From assembly GCF_009914755.1 (NCBI RefSeq), contig NC_060928.1: DNA of 64,000 bases. One strand, given 5' to 3'. Of the stretch, positions 506 through 60,594 are shown one piece after another. Position numbers and translations under genes: made by a program. How positions within the stretch are numbered: the stretch's first letter is position 1; every line of letters starts with the position of its first letter. The stretch comes from the human T2T-CHM13v2.0 reference genome, Homo sapiens. The notes below the pieces were generated by a model. The model was not told the DNA's origin and did no database searches. It saw only the letters and a list, made by a program, of their open reading frames with translations.

Positions 506-1405
506 GAGAGGAGCCAAGATGGCTGAATAGGAAGAGCTCCGGCCTACAGCTCCCAGCGTGAGCGACGCAGAAGATGGGTGATTTCTGCATTTCCATCTGA
601 GGTACCAGGTTCATCTCACTTGGGAGTGCCAGACAGTGGGCACAGGTCAGTGGGTGCGCGCACCCTGTGCGAGCCGAAGCAGGGCGAGGCATTGCCTCAC
701 TTGGGAAGCGCAAGGGGTCAGGGAGTTCCCTTTCCGAGTCAAAGAAAGGGGTGACTGACGCACCTGGAAAATCGGGTCACTCCCACCCGAATACTGCGCT
801 TTTCCGACCAGCTTAAAAAACGGCGCACCACGAGATTGTATCCCGCACCTGGCTTGGAGGGTCCTACGCCCACGGAGTCCTCTCGCTGATTGCTAGCACA
901 GCAGTCTGAGATCAAACTGCAATGTGGCAGCCAGGCTGGGGGAGGGGCGCCTGCCATTGCCCAGGCTTGCTTAGGTAAACAAAGCAGCGGGGACGCTCGA
1001 ACTGGGTGGAGCCCACCACAGCTAAAGGAGGCCTGCCGGCCTCTATAGGCTCCACCTCTGGGGGCAGGGCACAGACAAACAAAAAGACAGCAGTAACCTC
1101 TGCAGACTTAAATGTCCCTGTCTGACAGCTTTGAAGAGAGCAGTGGTTCTCCCAGCACACAGCTGGAGATCTGAGAATGGGCAGACTGCCTCCTCAAGTG
1201 GGTCCCTGACCCCCAAGCAGCCTACCTGGGAGGCACCCCCCAGCAAGGGCACACTGACACCTCACACGGCCAGGTACTCCAACAGACCTGCAGCTGAGGG
1301 TCCTGTCTGTTAGAAGGAAAACTAACAAACAGAAAGGACATCCACACCAAAAACCCATCTGTACATCACCATCATCAAAGACCAAAAGTAGATAAAACCA
1401 CAAAG
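506..1405 (+). promoter_or_regulatory. L1 5'UTR internal sense promoter and antisense promoter region; YY1 motif CAAGATGGC at 515-523
   Basis: CpG-rich L1 5'UTR recognisable end to end; promoter function is established for this element class but not shown for this copy. Confidence 0.75.
739..957 (-). CDS. ORF0: Primate L1 antisense ORF0, intact, 72 aa
   Basis: MAGAPPPAWLPHCSLISDCCASNQREDSVGVGPS...RCVSHPFL matches the 71-aa ORF0 plus one inserted codon; Kozak GGGCAATGG. Confidence 0.85.
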   Translation of the reverse strand: MAGAPPPAWLPHCSLISDCCASNQREDSVGVGPSKPGAGYNLVVRRFLSWSEKRSIRVGVTRFSRCVSHPFL

Positions 1406-2403
1406 ATGGGGAAAAAACAGAACAGAAAAACTGCAAACTCTAAAAAATAGAGCGCCTCTCCTCCTCCAAAGGAACGCAGTTCCTCACCAGCAATGGAACA
1501 AAGCTGGATGGAGAATGACTTTGACGAGCTGAGAGAAGAAGGCTTCAGACGATCAAATTACTCTGAGCTACGGGAGGACATTCAAACCAAAGGCAAAGAA
1601 GTTGAAAACTTTGAAAAAAATTTAGAAGAATGTATAACTAGAATAACCAATACAGAGAAGTGCTTAAAGGAGCTGATGGAGCTGAAAACCAAGGCTCAAG
1701 AACTACGTGAAGAATGCAGAAGCCTCAGGAGCTGATGTGATCAACTGGAAGAAAGGGTATCAGCGATGGAAGATGAAATGAATGAAATGAAGCGAGAAGG
1801 GAAGTTTAGAGAAAAAAGAATAAAAAGAAATGAGAAAGCCTCCAAGAAATATGGGACTATGTGAAAAGACCAAATCTACGTCTGATTAGGGTACCTGAAA
1901 GCGATGGGGAGAATGGAACCAAGTTAGAAAAAACTCTGCAGGATATTATCCAGGAGAACTTCCCCAATCTAGCAAGGCAGGCCAACGTTCAGATTCAGGA
2001 AATACAGAGAACACCACAAAGATATTCCTCGAGAAGAGCAACTCCAAGACACATAATTGTCAGATTCACCAAAGTTGAAATGAAGGAAAAAATGTTAAGG
2101 GCAGCCAGAGAGAAAGGTCGGGTTACCCTCAAAGGGAAGCCCATCAGACTAACAGCGGATCTCTCGGCAGAAACCCTGCAAGCCAGAAGAGAGTGGGGGC
2201 CAATATTCAACATTCTTAAAGAAAAGAATTTTCAACCCAGAATTTCATATCCAGCCAAACTAAGCTTCATAAGCGAAGGAGAAATAAAATACTTGACAGA
2301 CAAGCAAATGCTGAGAGATTTTGTCACCACCAGGCCCAAGGAAGCACTAAACATGGAAAGGAACAACCAGTACCAGCCACTGCAAAATCATGCCAAAATG
2401 TAA
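1406..2403 (+). pseudogene. L1 ORF1p, disabled
   Basis: ATG at 1406; TAG at 1448-1450; TGA at 1733-1735; frameshift near 1834; in-frame loss of ALKELL near 2336 (TTRPKEALN vs TTRPALKELLKEALN in L1 #2). Confidence 0.93.
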
Positions 2404-2466
2404 AGACCATCGAGACTAGGAAGAAACTGCATCAACTAACCAGCAAAAGAACCAGCTAACATCATA

Positions 2467-57300: not shown

Positions 57301-58238
57301 CCCAACCTCCATTATGAAACACGAATCAAATCCACATCCTCTGTGCCACACATTGAAATCCTTGCCTTTTTTTAGCTAGTGTGTGTGTCAGCTCTTTTTT
57401 TTCTTTTTTTGTGAACTTGCAGCCTCAGATGTTAGTTAAGTTTTACTATTCTTCAAAAGCATTTATTTGAAAAACATGTGAATGGAAAATGAACATGCTC
57501 AACTAATTAGGATATGCAAATGTGGTTCGGTGGGACTGCTTTTTAAGTGAATCATGCTTATTTGAATACACAAATAAAAGAAAATTTGTTTCAGTAACAA
57601 TCTGGAAGTTAGTTCATGTGGAACAAATAAGGGCTTAAATTATAGGGATTAGCTTTTCAGAATCTACTTTACACTTCACCTTTTTAATAGGAAATGTAGA
57701 CTTGAGCCAGAGGCCCATCTTGTCATTGATGGAGGTTCAGTGAGCCACACAATACTTACCAAGTTCTTGCCCTCATTTAAAGTGAGGACTGAGAAAAGAG
57801 CTTTCTAAAGATTTATTTCTTTCTTTCAAGGCAGTTTATGGGCAAGCAGGTGCAGATCTATAACTATAAACCATAGCCACTTAAAATATTTTTCTAGTAA
57901 AAAATATTTTAAATCATGGACTTGAAAAGCAATACTTTGTTCATGATGCAGAAAGAACCACAAGTTATGCTAAAAGAAAGAAATCACATAAAAGAAAGGG
58001 AAAAACACATTAAAACGATAAAAAGAAATCAAGTCAAATGATGTATGGAGGAAATGGATTTGAGGATATTTCAAGACCCGAGACTACATCCCTAAAGAAC
58101 CAATATTATATTTCATATTTAGGATTCATTTTACAAAGATAAGGATTGGGACTTATCAAGTCATGGTTAAATCAAGGAAAGAATCAAAGTGGTTGAAAAT
58201 GTTAGTCTAGATCGCTTACCACTCAATCAATATAGGGG

Positions 58239-60594
58239 ACATATGCAAATCAATAAATGTAATCCAGCATATAAACAGAGCCAAAGACAAAAACCACATG
58301 ATTATCTCAATAGATGCAGAAAAGGCCTTTGACAAAATTCAACAACCGTTCATGCTAAAAACGCTCAATAAATTAGGTATTGATGGGACATATTTCAAAA
58401 TAATAAGAGCTATCTATGACAAACCCACAGCCAATATCATACTGAATGGGCAAAAACTGGAAGCATTCCCTTTGAAAAGTGGCACAAGACAGGGATGCCC
58501 TCTCTCACCACTCCTATTCAACATAGTGTTGGAAGTTCTGGCCAGGGCAATTAGGCAGGAGAAGGAAATAAAGGGTATTCAATTAGGAAAAGAGGAAGTC
58601 AAATTGTCCCTGTTTGCAGAAGACATGATTGTATATCTAGAAAACCCCATTGTCTCAGCCCAAAATCTCCTTAAGCTGATAAGCAACTTCAGCAAAGTCT
58701 CAGGATACAAAATCAATGTGCAAAAAATCACAAGTATTCCTATACACCAACAACAGACAAACAGAGAGCCAAATCATGAGTGAAATCCCATTCACAATTG
58801 CTTCAAAGAGAATAAAGTACCTAGGAATCCAACTTACAAGGGATGTGAAGGACCTCTTCAAGGAGAACTACAAACCACTGCTCAAGGAAATAAAAGAGGA
58901 TACAAACAAATGGAAGAACATTCCATGCTCATGGGTAGGAAGAATCAATATCGTGAAAATGGCCATACTGCCCAAGGTAATTTACAGATTCAATGCCATC
59001 CCCATCAAGCTGCCAATGCCTTTCTTCACAGAATTGGAAAAAACTACTTTAAAGTTCATATGGAACCAAAAAAGAGCCCGCATCACCAAGTCAATCCTAA
59101 GCCAAAAGAACAAAGCTGGGGGCATCACACTACCTGACTTCAAACTATACTACGAGGCTACAGTAACCAAAACAGCATGGTACTGGTACCAAAACAGAGA
59201 TATAGATCAATGGAACAGAACAGAGCCCTCAGAAATAACGCCACGTATCTACAACTATCTGATCTTTGACAAACCTGAGAAAAACAAGCAATGGGGAAAG
59301 GATTCCCTATTTAATAAATGGTGCTGGGAAAACTGGCTAGCCATATGTACAAAGCTGAAACTGGATCCCTTCCTTACACCTTATACAAAAATCAATTCAA
59401 GATGGATTGAAGACTTAAACATTAGACCTAAAACCATAAAAACCCTAGAAGAAAACCTAGGCATTACCATTCAGGACATAGGCATGGGCAAGGACTTCAT
59501 GTCTAAAACACCAAAAGCAATGGCAACAAAAGCCAAAATTGACAAATGGGATCTAATTAAACTCAACAGCTTCTGCACAGCAAAAGAAACTACCATCAGA
59601 GTGAACAGGCAACCTACAAAATGGGAGAAAATTTTCGCAACCTACTCATCTGACAAAGGGCTAATATCCAGAATCTACAATGAACTCAAACAAATTTACA
59701 AGAAAAAAACAAACAACCCCATCAAAAAGTGGGTGAAGGACATGAACAGACACTTCTCAAAAGAAGACATTTATGCAGCCAAAAAACACATGAAAAAATG
59801 CTCACTATCACTGGCCATCAGAGAAATGCAAATCAAAACCACAATGAGATACCATCTCACACCAGTTAGAATGGCGATCATTAAAAAGTCAGGAAACAAC
59901 AAGTGCTGGAGAGGATGTGGAGAAATAGGAACACTTTTACACTGTTGGTGGGACTGTAAACTAGTTCAACCATTGTGGAAGTCAGTGTGGCGATTCCTCA
60001 GGGATCTAGAACTAGAAATACCATTTGACCCAGCCATCCCATTACTGGGTATATACCCAAAGGACTATAAATCATGCTGCTATAAAGACACATGCTCACG
60101 TATGTTTATTGCGGCATTATTCACAATAGCAAAAACTTGGAACCAACCCAAATGTCCAACAATGATAGACTGGATTAAGAAAATGTGGCACATATACACC
60201 ATGGAATACTATGCAGCCATAAAAAATGATGAGTTCATGTCCTTTGTAGGGACATGGATGAAATTGGAAATCATCATTCTCAGTAAACTATTGCAAGAAC
60301 AAAAAACCAAACACCGCATATTCTCACTCATAGGTGGGAATTGAACAATGAGATCACATGGACACAGGAAGGGGAACATCACACTCTGGGGACTGTTGTG
60401 GGGTGGGGGGAGGGGGGAGGGATAGCATTGGGAGATATACCTAATGCTAGATGACGAGTTAGTGGGTGCAGCACACCAGCATGGCACATGTATACATATG
60501 TAACTAACCTGCACAATGTGCACATATACCCTAAAACTTAAAGTATAATAATAAAAAATAAATAAATAAATAAAACCAAAAAAAAGAAAAAAAA
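58239..60594 (+). mobile_element. 5'-truncated L1PA2/3-like element, about 2.35 kb (L1 #5)
   Basis: RT to C-terminus nearly intact (542-aa ORF 58716-60344); RT motif mutated to FAED; 3'UTR with G-rich tract; no TSD found. Confidence 0.95.

What the first reader, a model, noticed from the sequence alone, without database searches (positions are those of the whole stretch)
506..60594. Neighbouring L1 copies of different subfamilies share private mutations: possible local L1 gene-conversion network
Seen in sequence, compared with the L1PA consensus as I recall it, are these non-CpG changes shared between copies. #1 and #2: GGAAgAGCTC (534/41474), CTCTaTAGG (1045/41984), CTgCAAGCC (2178/43262), CAAtCTACC giving EIQSTI (3691/44793), ACTAtCATC (5540/46645). 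#1, #2 and #5: GTGAAaTCCC giving MSEIPF (4732/45836/58785; #3 has the consensus C). #2 and #5: TGTAcAAAG giving ICTK (46402/59350) and AAACTcAA (46616/59564). #1 and #5: CTCACtATC (5753/59806). #4 and #5: TGCtCACG giving TCSR (53059/60096). The sharing is non-tree-like (1+2, 2+5, 1+5, 4+5) and crosses subfamilies, which independent insertions should not produce. Inference: repeated short-tract non-allelic gene conversion among co-oriented L1s within 60 kb, analogous to homogenisation known for neighbouring Alus. Alternatives: lineage-specific L1 subfamilies of a non-human ape, or repeat-collapse/polishing artefacts.
Basis: partly seen in the sequence, partly recalled or inferred. Interest (0 to 1): 0.8.

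Follow-up and report, generated by a model that had tools for sequence, protein, structure and literature searches.

The report
Neighbouring L1 copies share rare variants
Five dead LINE-1 copies in this stretch of human chromosome 4 share several rare single-base changes with each other and with L1 copies up to about a megabase away, most likely because nearby copies were occasionally used as templates to repair one another.

Summary
All ten quoted k-mers are present, 2-5 nt from the stated places. Seven are rare genome-wide: 30-118 exact copies each, against about 10,000 L1 copies at the two sites where that total was counted. Three are not private: v5 (7 of 34 reference copies), v2 (2 of 17) and v8 (581 copies). 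The rare alleles are not linked elsewhere in the genome. The copies have unrelated flanks, and copy 1 has its own 14-nt target-site duplication, so subfamily markers and segmental duplication are excluded. Copies 1 (youngest group) and 2 (intermediate) share 6 rare non-CpG alleles. Cross-subfamily pairs from chromosome 1 share 0.73 on average (59 pairs, maximum 4). Outside the window, four more L1s within 1.2 Mb carry 4732-A, one more carries 5297-C and one more 6043-T. Genome-wide, carriers of some rare L1 alleles cluster within about 500 kb, in independent insertions of different subfamilies. Other rare alleles cluster only weakly. I found no long identical tracts and no overall homogenisation. 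Best reading (0.55): old, short-patch non-allelic gene conversion among neighbouring L1s. It is not limited to 60 kb or to co-oriented copies. Clusters of 4-7 copies sharing one site remain unexplained.

The parts
506..6527 (+). L1 copy c1 (#1): full length, youngest group 'Y', with a 14-nt target-site duplication at 492-505 and 6528-6541. ORFs are broken.
   Evidence: Self-BLAST. TSD AAAAGTGAAAACTG. 97 of 103 informative diagnostic sites are Y-type. Only ORF pieces of 107-579 aa remain. Pfam finds L1 ORF1 domains and an endonuclease/RT.
41446..47660 (+). L1 copy c2 (#2): full length, intermediate subfamily, with about 140 nt extra in the 5' UTR compared with c1. It is inserted just after an Alu (41142-41435). 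ORFs are broken.
   Evidence: 94.5% identical to c1 over 5.3 kb, with the extra block between c1 positions 771 and 775. 47 Y-type and 57 old-type diagnostic alleles. ORF pieces only.
32072..34112 (+). L1 copy c3 (#3): 5'-truncated, older subfamily. It shares no rare allele with the other four window copies.
   Evidence: 92.4% identical to c1. 29 of 31 diagnostic sites are old-type. 0 shared rare alleles in 4 pairs.
52922..53539 (+). L1 copy c4 (#4): 0.6-kb 3' end, group Y.
   Evidence: 16 Y-type, 1 old-type.
58236..60603 (+). L1 copy c5 (#5): 2.4-kb 3' part, group Y.
   Evidence: 29 Y-type, 4 old-type.
534..534 (+). Shared rare C>G in c1 534 and c2 41474 (v1).
   Evidence: 0 of 13 chr1 copies. 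61 exact copies genome-wide; the only carriers in the chr4 114-115 Mb region are c1 and c2.
2178..2178 (+). Shared rare A>G in c1 2178 and c2 43262 (v3).
   Evidence: 1 of 23. 60 genome-wide.
3691..3691 (+). Shared rare A>T in c1 3691 and c2 44793 (v4).
   Evidence: 0 of 26. 43 genome-wide; none of the other 41 coincides with a v6-A copy.
4022..4022 (+).
   Evidence: 0 of 28 chr1 copies. Coordinates.
4732..4732 (+). Shared rare C>A in c1 4732, c2 45836 and c5 58785 (v6; c3 has C). It is also carried by four L1s outside the window at chr4 114.17, 114.76, 114.84 and 115.40 Mb.
   Evidence: 118 of 9,636 genome-wide. Seven carriers lie within 1.2 Mb. The allele sits on both backgrounds at the neighbouring diagnostic site, 27 and 50 copies.
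46402..46402 (+). Shared rare G>C in c2 46402 and c5 59350 (v7; c1 5297 has G). Also carried by a copy at chr4 114.55 Mb on the - strand.
   Evidence: 77 of 10,525 genome-wide. L045 carries it.
46616..46616 (+). Shared A>C in c2 46616 and c5 59564 (v8). Also carried by L041 and L043 outside the window. The allele is commoner genome-wide.
   Evidence: 581 copies. 0 of 34 chr1 copies. Carriers.
5753..5753 (+). Shared rare C>T in c1 5753 and c5 59806 (v9).
   Evidence: 40 genome-wide; the only two in the chr4 114-115 Mb region are c1 and c5.
53059..53059 (+). Shared rare A>T in c4 53059 and c5 60096 (v10). A third carrier lies at chr4 114,449,038 on the - strand.
   Evidence: 30 genome-wide, three of them within 250 kb.
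6367..6367 (+).
   Evidence: 0 of 29 chr1 copies. Coordinates.
5540..5540 (+). v5 C>T in c1 5540 and c2 46645. A common allele that needs no special explanation.
   Evidence: 7 of 34 chr1 copies.
1045..1045 (+). v2 G>A in c1 1045 and c2 41984. Not rare.
   Evidence: 2 of 17 chr1 copies.

Best explanation
The five elements are independent, long-dead primate L1 insertions from at least three successive subfamilies. After insertion, breaks in one copy were now and then repaired using a nearby, non-allelic L1 copy as template (non-allelic, or ectopic, gene conversion). Each such repair copied a short patch of tens of bases, including whatever private mutation the donor carried. Over roughly ten million years or more this left a few rare alleles shared between neighbours in a pattern that fits no tree, without raising overall similarity. 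Shown here: the alleles are rare; they are unlinked elsewhere in the genome; the insertions are independent; sharing across subfamilies exceeds a matched null; and sharing genome-wide falls off with distance. Inferred: the transfer itself, its direction, its timing and the tract length.
For: (1) Rarity: 30-118 exact copies genome-wide for seven alleles, against 9,636 and 10,525 copies with any allele at two of the sites. (2) No genome-wide haplotype: comparing the place lists by eye, none of the other v4-T, v1-G or v3-G places belongs to a v6-A copy. Of the 31 v6-A carriers listed within the range covered by the v8-C list, 1 also carries v8-C. (3) Independent insertions: the window self-BLAST finds only L1- and Alu-sized repeats; c1 has its own TSD; the flanks of the ten chr4 copies give no hits to each other. 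(4) Different subfamilies: c1 has 97 Y-type and 6 old-type diagnostic alleles, c2 has 47 and 57. They nevertheless share 6 rare alleles, against a mean of 0.73 and a maximum of 4 in 59 matched far pairs. By hand, Poisson P(>=6) is about 1e-4. (6) For the ten chr4 copies, with sites 4227 and 4792 left out, there are 25 shared pair-sites against 11.9 expected from group-matched chr1 partners (P=6e-4). (7) Micro-haplotypes next to v6-A: L041 and L042, 590 kb apart on opposite strands, share a second rare change 16 nt upstream. In the listing, 3 of 100 carriers of that change have v6-A, and two of those are these copies. c1 and L043 both lack 2 nt of an (AG) run just upstream; 0 of 25 chr1 copies lack exactly these 2 nt. 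(8) Divergence is low within +-30 nt of the shared sites: c2-c5 2 of 183 nt, c1-c5 0 of 122 nt. (9) Genome-wide, same-allele pairs per Mb of separation, relative to the 2-10 Mb bin, are 36x below 20 kb, 19x at 20-100 kb and 7x at 100-500 kb for v6-A, v7-C, v6-G, v4-T, v9-T and v10-T with the chr4 region excluded. The any-allele null gives 2.3x, 2.5x and 1.7x. Thirteen copies in 5 such clusters have unrelated 3' flanks. (10) Conversion between L1PA3 copies has been seen as a human polymorphism (PMC5829575, passages read).
Against: No tract is visible for c1-c2. Four of the six shared sites lie in identical runs of only 12-15 nt, and divergence within +-100 nt is 4.5% against 5.5% overall, which is not significant. 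There is no general homogenisation: c1-c5 differ by 3.1%, which is no closer than c1 or c5 to chr1 copies of the same group (2.6-2.8%). Three rare alleles drawn at random from chr1 copies, pooled with v4-T, v9-T and v10-T, show only a weak local excess: 6.6x at 20-100 kb (7 pairs) against a null of 2.5x, and 2.3x at 100-500 kb against 1.7x. The 2-nt deletion allele (112 copies) shows almost no clustering by eye. The strong signal comes from two sites, c1 positions 4227 and 4792. A low, uniform pairwise conversion rate does not predict 4-7 copies sharing a single site while sharing almost nothing else, as in the chr14 cluster. Four chr4 copies carry both 4227-A and 5006-C but keep their own subfamily alleles in between, so each would need two separate patches. 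The shared alleles show no GC bias (3 weak-to-strong, 3 strong-to-weak, 4 neutral). The reference panel is small: 37 copies from one arm of chr1, chosen by an exact flanking word.
Confidence: 0.55

Rival explanations
1. Related copies were inserted close together. A small L1 sublineage carrying, for example, 4732-A seeded several insertions in the same 1-Mb region, either from a local source or because the region was briefly a hot target. The shared alleles were then inherited from the source RNA and not exchanged afterwards.
For: Five of the seven v6-A carriers in the region (c1, c5, L041, L042, L044) belong to the same youngest group. The v6, v7 and v8 changes are a conservative Leu-to-Ile change, an Arg-to-Thr change and, if the frame is as I read it, a synonymous change in ORF2 (my reading of the codons), so active sources could have carried them. 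In the chr3 cluster of three v6-G copies within 30 kb, L063 and L064 share 9 rare alleles in 1.1 kb despite unrelated flanks. Allele-sharing pairs under 500 kb favour the same orientation, 37 to 19.
Against: It cannot explain c1-c2 or c2-c5, which belong to different subfamilies along their whole length, nor L043, of the oldest group, carrying v6-A and v8-C. The group-Y carriers share nothing consistent beyond v6-A, only 1-2 scattered alleles per pair. v6-A sits on both backgrounds at the neighbouring diagnostic site genome-wide, 27 and 50 copies. The chr14 and chr3 clusters mix subfamilies. From recall, no local re-insertion preference is known for L1; I did not search the literature for this.
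Confidence: 0.18
2. Chance. The sharing comes from parallel mutations at moderately mutable sites plus a few minor-lineage alleles, noticed because a reader looked for sharing in one of many windows.
For: Random far-apart L1 pairs already share 0.2-0.3 rare non-CpG alleles per kb, so about 3.6-5.4 of the 12 window pair-sites are expected by chance (my multiplication of those rates by 19.06 kb). One chr1 copy, L027, shares 7 rare alleles with c2. Three of the ten quoted variants are common. In the 3' 2.4 kb, with the two ascertained sites left out, the window pairs give 4 against 1.67 expected (P=0.09).
Against: c1-c2 share 6 against 0.73 expected for cross-subfamily pairs, and 0 of 59 null pairs exceed 4.
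Confidence: 0.12
3. Untemplated recurrent mutation. A few L1 positions (c1 positions 4227 and 4792) mutate repeatedly, at a rate that depends on the chromosomal region, for example where a bound protein or a break hotspot makes that site error-prone.
For: Site 4227 has four alleles, and both minor transversion alleles (A and G) form regional clusters. chr10 19.9-21.0 Mb holds clusters of v6-A, v6-G and v7-C together. Members of the chr14 cluster share little besides the one site.
Against: Within a region the same base is shared (seven A on chr4; three G on chr3), not a mixture. Linked rare changes 13-18 nt away are shared too. A rise of roughly 30-fold in one specific substitution at one site would be needed (my estimate). 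It does not explain the five other c1-c2 sites, whose alleles do not cluster elsewhere.
Confidence: 0.08
4. Assembly or polishing artefact that copied bases between similar repeats.
For: None found. It could not be tested, because no reads or second assembly were available.
Against: The copies differ by 3-6%, far too much to be collapsed. The shared bases are isolated single sites among many retained differences. The same pattern occurs on many chromosomes.
Confidence: 0.02

Closest known systems
Homogenisation of neighbouring Alu elements by non-allelic gene conversion (Aleshin and Zhi 2010). I saw it only as cited in PMC6598467 (parts 1-2 read) and PMC8230782 (passages read).
   Same: Non-diagnostic variants are shared more often between physically close copies of a dispersed retroelement. 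Sharing falls off with distance and crosses subfamilies.
   Different: The range reported for Alu is about 10 kb. Here the pairs are 7-54 kb apart within the window, the excess runs to about 500 kb, and single alleles occur in up to 7 copies over 1.2 Mb. The elements are 0.6-6 kb L1s. The signal is very uneven between sites.
Individual L1-L1 conversion events in present-day humans (Frith and Khan, PMC5829575, passages read: conversion between L1PA3 LINEs; inversion with conversion between L1PA7 LINEs).
   Same: The same element family and the same proposed mechanism.
   Different: Those are recent events with visible tracts, found as structural differences in long reads. Here there are only old single-site footprints and no visible tract.
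Concerted evolution and interlocus gene conversion of segmental duplications and gene families (general knowledge, as reviewed in PMC6598467).
   Same: Mosaic, non-tree-like sharing of derived variants between paralogues.
   Different: No lowered overall divergence. The partners are independent insertions with unrelated flanks.
L1PA subfamily-diagnostic substitutions (the single-lineage 'ladder' of primate L1 subfamilies; the names L1PA2-L1PA8 are recalled and were not tested against Dfam).
   Same: Alleles shared between copies relative to a young consensus. v5, and perhaps v2 and v8, are of this kind.
   Different: The other seven alleles occur in about 1% of copies or fewer, are not linked to each other elsewhere, and are shared across rungs of the ladder while absent from the rungs between.

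Membership tests
Primate LINE-1 (L1PA) insertions | About 6 kb long with an A-rich tail and a target-site duplication; ORF1 and ORF2 (endonuclease and reverse transcriptase); thousands of dispersed copies | tested here: met
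   c1 is 6.0 kb with a 14-nt TSD and an A-rich tail. Pfam finds Transposase_22 and Tnp_22_dsRBD in an ORF1 piece, and Exo_endo_phos plus a sub-threshold RVT_1 match in an ORF2 piece. Internal 27-29-mers occur about 10,000 times in the genome.
Non-allelic gene conversion between dispersed repeats | Donor and acceptor are separate loci, not products of one DNA duplication | tested here: met
   No flank homology. c1 has its own TSD. 13 copies in 5 other clusters have unrelated flanks.
Non-allelic gene conversion between dispersed repeats | Derived variants are shared in a way that conflicts with the elements' phylogeny, above a matched chance level | tested here: met
   c1 (group Y) and c2 (intermediate) share 6 against 0.73 expected. 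The sharing sets 1+2, 2+5, 1+5 and 4+5 fit no tree.
Non-allelic gene conversion between dispersed repeats | A contiguous tract with co-converted markers and definable end points | tested here: inconclusive
   No unusually long identical runs. No dip in divergence at +-100 nt; a dip only at +-30 nt for c2-c5 and c1-c5. Two linked micro-haplotypes occur next to v6-A.
Non-allelic gene conversion between dispersed repeats | Frequency falls with physical distance | tested here: met
   Pair density relative to the 2-10 Mb bin is 36x, 19x, 7x and 1.5x across the four distance bins, against an any-allele null of 2.3x, 2.5x, 1.7x and 1.4x. It is weaker for the pooled set of three randomly chosen alleles plus v4-T, v9-T and v10-T: 6.6x at 20-100 kb.
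Non-allelic gene conversion between dispersed repeats | The orthologous locus in an outgroup shows the state before conversion | not testable with these tools
   No ape genomes were available.
Subfamily-diagnostic L1 variation | The allele is frequent genome-wide and linked to the other markers of that subfamily | tested here: not met
   Seven alleles have 30-118 copies each and are unlinked elsewhere. The feature is met only for v5 (7 of 34) and arguably v2 (2 of 17) and v8 (581 copies).
Segmental duplication | Homology continues into the flanks | tested here: not met
   As a positive control, the chr1 pair L016/L018 does show homology running through non-L1 sequence.

The most novel reading that the evidence does not exclude
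L1 copies within a chromatin neighbourhood of up to about 0.5-1 Mb form an ectopic-repair network with preferred exchange points inside ORF2, near c1 positions 4227 and 4792. Breaks at these points would be patched from neighbouring L1s. A rare allele could then spread to 4-7 independent copies of different subfamilies and on both strands, possibly with a drive-like bias, while the rest of each element diverges freely. If so, L1 ages and subfamily calls in L1-dense regions are systematically distorted, and old L1s record past break hotspots.
Probability: 0.2. Interest if true: 0.8.

Novelty: new variant of a known kind. Interest (0 to 1): 0.6.

Why it matters
Divergence-based dating, subfamily assignment and mutation-rate estimates from L1 'fossils' all assume that copies evolve independently after insertion. 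If neighbouring L1s exchange patches over tens to hundreds of kilobases, that assumption fails in L1-rich regions. The result would extend the neighbour effect reported for Alu (about 10 kb) to a much larger scale and to the element family that makes up about a sixth of the genome (recalled figure). It would also give a way to read past ectopic repair from a single genome. Five literature searches found no genome-wide study of this kind for L1. They found only single L1-L1 conversion events and the Alu work. Subscription-only papers are outside that library.

Tried and rejected
Subfamily markers: rejected for seven alleles by genome-wide counts and by the lack of linkage between the place lists, which I compared by eye.

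Segmental or tandem duplication: rejected.

Recent conversion tracts: looked for and not found.

c1 as a mosaic carrying many older-type alleles: c1 has 6 old-type of 103, within the range of chr1 copies of its group, 0-14.

c2 as a block mosaic of young and old segments: its young-type and old-type alleles are finely interleaved, as expected of a true intermediate subfamily (read by eye).

Shared indels: an apparent 'CA insertion' shared by L041 and L042 turned out to be a substitution combined with a c1-private 2-nt deletion.

One of the four randomly drawn control alleles (958 copies) was not rare and was left out.

No Dfam consensus was available. The groups Y, M1, M2, O1 and O2 are my own, derived from the chr1 panel, and their equivalence to named L1PA subfamilies is only recalled.

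Full report
WHAT IS THERE. The window (human T2T-CHM13 chr4:114,638,001-114,702,000 by the hub's annotation; the genome tool places it at the same coordinates) holds five L1 copies on the + strand. They are c1 506-6527 (full length), c3 32072-34112, c2 41446-47660 (full length), c4 52922-53539 and c5 58236-60603. There are also two much older L1 pieces (10694-12705 on the - strand, 27661-28919 on the + strand). c1 has a 14-nt target-site duplication (492-505 and 6528-6541). Pieces of its reading frames match the L1 ORF1 domains and the endonuclease/reverse-transcriptase families. Both full-length copies have broken frames. A self-comparison of the whole window finds only L1- and Alu-sized repeats. 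The 400-nt flanks of the copies give no hits to each other. These are therefore independent insertions and not duplicated DNA.

THE OBSERVATION. They were the first 40 places of an any-allele word search. I projected them on c1.

In this panel the quoted alleles occur as follows: v1-G 0 of 13, v2-A 2 of 17, v3-G 1 of 23, v4-T 0 of 26, v5-T 7 of 34, v6-A 0 of 40, v7-C 0 of 38, v8-C 0 of 34, v9-T 0 of 33, v10-T 0 of 33.

Exact word counts over the whole genome are:
- v6-A: 118 of 9,636 copies with any base at that site. The first 100 listed of the 9,636 read 93 C, 5 T, 1 A and 1 G by my count.
- v7-C: 77 of 10,525.
- v4-T: 43.
- v9-T: 40.
- v10-T: 30.
- v1-G: 61.
- v3-G: 60.
- v8-C: 581.

Seven alleles are thus rare. 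v5, v2 and v8 are not private.

NOT SUBFAMILY MARKERS. Diagnostic sites in the panel order the copies on a ladder. c1, c4 and c5 belong to the youngest group, which I call Y. c1 has 97 Y-type and 6 old-type alleles. c2 is intermediate, with 47 and 57. c3 is older, with 2 and 29. c1 also lacks about 140 nt of 5' UTR that c2 and the older panel copies have. By recall this fits the L1PA3-and-younger form, but I did not test it against Dfam.

The rare alleles are not linked elsewhere. Comparing the place lists by eye, none of the other v4-T, v1-G or v3-G copies is also a v6-A copy. v6-A sits on both alleles of the diagnostic site 32 nt upstream, 27 and 50 copies.

MORE THAN CHANCE? But c1 and c2 belong to different subfamilies and share 6. 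Fifty-nine panel pairs of group Y against non-Y, more than 2 Mb apart, share 0.73 on average and never more than 4. By hand, Poisson P is about 1e-4. c1 shares at most 2 with any full-length panel copy. c2 shares at most 2 with any group-Y panel copy, though it shares 7 with L027, a copy of a neighbouring rung.

All ten window pairs give 12 pair-sites in 19.06 kb, or 0.63 per kb. In the 3' 2.4 kb alone, with sites 4227 and 4792 left out, the window pairs are not significant (4 against 1.67 expected, P=0.09).

- v6-A also occurs in L1s at chr4 114,174,473 (-), 114,761,512 (+), 114,836,127 (-) and 115,399,070 (+). That makes seven of the 118 genome-wide within 1.2 Mb.
- v7-C occurs at 114,550,545 (-).
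- v10-T occurs at 114,449,038 (-).

I fetched five of these copies, all but the v10-T carrier. Their 3' flanks are unrelated. Three are group Y, one (L045) is closest to group M1 and about half old-type, like c2, and one (L043) is of the oldest group. L041 and L043 also carry v8-C. Over the ten chr4 copies, excluding the two sites used to find them, shared rare pair-sites number 25 against 11.9 expected from group-matched chr1 partners (P=6e-4). Pair-sites are not fully independent.

A GENOME-WIDE PATTERN, BUT AN UNEVEN ONE. Outside the chr4 region, carriers of v6-A, v7-C and a control allele at the same site (v6-G, 56 copies) sit in groups. Examples are five v7-C copies in chr4:57.2-57.5 Mb, four in chr14:25.8-26.3 Mb, and three v6-G copies in 30 kb on chr3.

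For six alleles pooled, I counted same-allele pairs per Mb of separation, relative to the 2-10 Mb bin. The values are 36x below 20 kb, 19x at 20-100 kb, 7x at 100-500 kb and 1.5x at 0.5-2 Mb. One hundred any-allele copies on chr1 give 2.3x, 2.5x, 1.7x and 1.4x. Thirteen copies from five clusters have unrelated 3' flanks. The chr14 and chr3 clusters each mix subfamilies.

Against this, three rare alleles drawn at random from panel copies (a fourth was not rare and was dropped), pooled with v4-T, v9-T and v10-T, show only 6.6x at 20-100 kb (7 pairs) and 2.3x at 100-500 kb. The 2-nt deletion allele (112 copies) hardly clusters. None of the four index copies (L021, L035, L023, L024) has a same-allele neighbour within 500 kb. 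The strong clustering therefore belongs to particular sites, c1 positions 4227 and 4792.

MECHANISM. A process that moves information between nearby L1s fits best. It explains sharing across subfamilies, on both strands and with unrelated flanks. It also explains the distance decay and the small linked haplotypes. L041 and L042 share a second rare change 16 nt from v6-A. c1 and L043 share a 2-nt loss next to it, seen in 0 of 25 panel copies. L1-L1 conversion is documented in living humans (PMC5829575, passages). For Alu, a neighbour effect over about 10 kb is in print (seen as cited in PMC6598467 and PMC8230782).

The weaknesses are real:
- There are no recognisable tracts. The longest identical runs, 155-157 nt, are about what chance gives.
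- There is no dip in divergence within +-100 nt of the c1-c2 sites. The only dip is within +-30 nt, for c2-c5 (2 of 183) and c1-c5 (0 of 122).
- There is no overall homogenisation.
- Groups of 4-7 copies share one site and almost nothing else.
- Four chr4 copies carry both 4227-A and 5006-C while keeping their own subfamily alleles in between.

Short, old patches would account for the missing tracts. The single-site groups call for exchange hotspots or a bias, and I can only propose that.

A rival explanation for the group-Y carriers is clustered insertion of a small sublineage. It cannot explain c1-c2, c2-c5 or L043.

VERDICT. It is an instance of a wider and apparently undescribed property of human L1s. 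Ape orthologues would settle it.

Noticed in passing
window 214-1405: The two RefSeq 'enhancer' features in the hub's annotation (214-809 and 810-1405) overlap the 5' UTR of L1 copy c1, which starts at 506. The annotated activity may therefore be that of the L1 promoter region.
   Followed up: no
window 4732 (c1 position 4227): This ORF2 codon position has four alleles genome-wide. In the first 100 of 9,636 copies listed it reads C 93, T 5, A 1 and G 1. Both rare transversion alleles form regional clusters of independent copies. All three changes swap one hydrophobic residue for another (my reading of the codon).
   Followed up: partly
G000 chr10:19.9-21.0 Mb (places listed): One region holds clusters of three different rare alleles: v6-A at 19,904,354, 20,311,551 and 20,479,529; v7-C at 20,514,895, 20,557,368 and 20,960,958; v6-G at 20,353,995 and 20,960,393. 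One copy carries both v6-G and v7-C. chr6:86.5-87.1 Mb and chr3:90.0-90.45 Mb behave similarly.
   Followed up: no
L036 and L037 (chr1 40.95 and 41.05 Mb): Two panel copies of different subfamilies, 97 kb apart, share 7 rare alleles, 6 of them between c1 positions 3848 and 4447. They differ by 3.2% in positions 3500-4100 against 6.6% in the rest. This looks like an old tract of about 600 nt.
   Followed up: partly
L007-L012 (chr1 12.3-12.8 Mb) and L016-L018 (chr1 16.1-16.4 Mb): These panel loci are copies within segmental duplications; for L016/L018 the homology runs through non-L1 sequence. L010-L012 were dropped from the counts. The others inflate the figure for chr1 pairs under 1 Mb.
   Followed up: partly
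window 4712-4716: c1 lacks 2 nt of an (AG) run in ORF2, 13-18 nt upstream of the shared 4732-A. The old-subfamily copy L043, 193 kb away on the other strand, lacks 2 nt at the same place. 112 copies genome-wide have c1's exact form, and of the 100 listed 2 carry 4732-A.
   Followed up: yes
places: v9-T and v10-T carriers also appear as sets in subtelomeric (chr1, chr11 and chr19 at about 0.1 Mb) and acrocentric short-arm (chr13, chr14, chr21) positions at matching spacings. They are presumably copies within known large duplications.
   Followed up: no
window 41142-41445: c2 is inserted directly after the A-tail of an Alu, with a short G-rich run at the junction.
   Followed up: no
pairs under 500 kb: Pairs sharing v6-A, v7-C or v6-G favour the same orientation (37 same, 19 opposite). 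Any-allele pairs do not (74 and 84), nor do the randomly chosen alleles (8 and 10).
   Followed up: no
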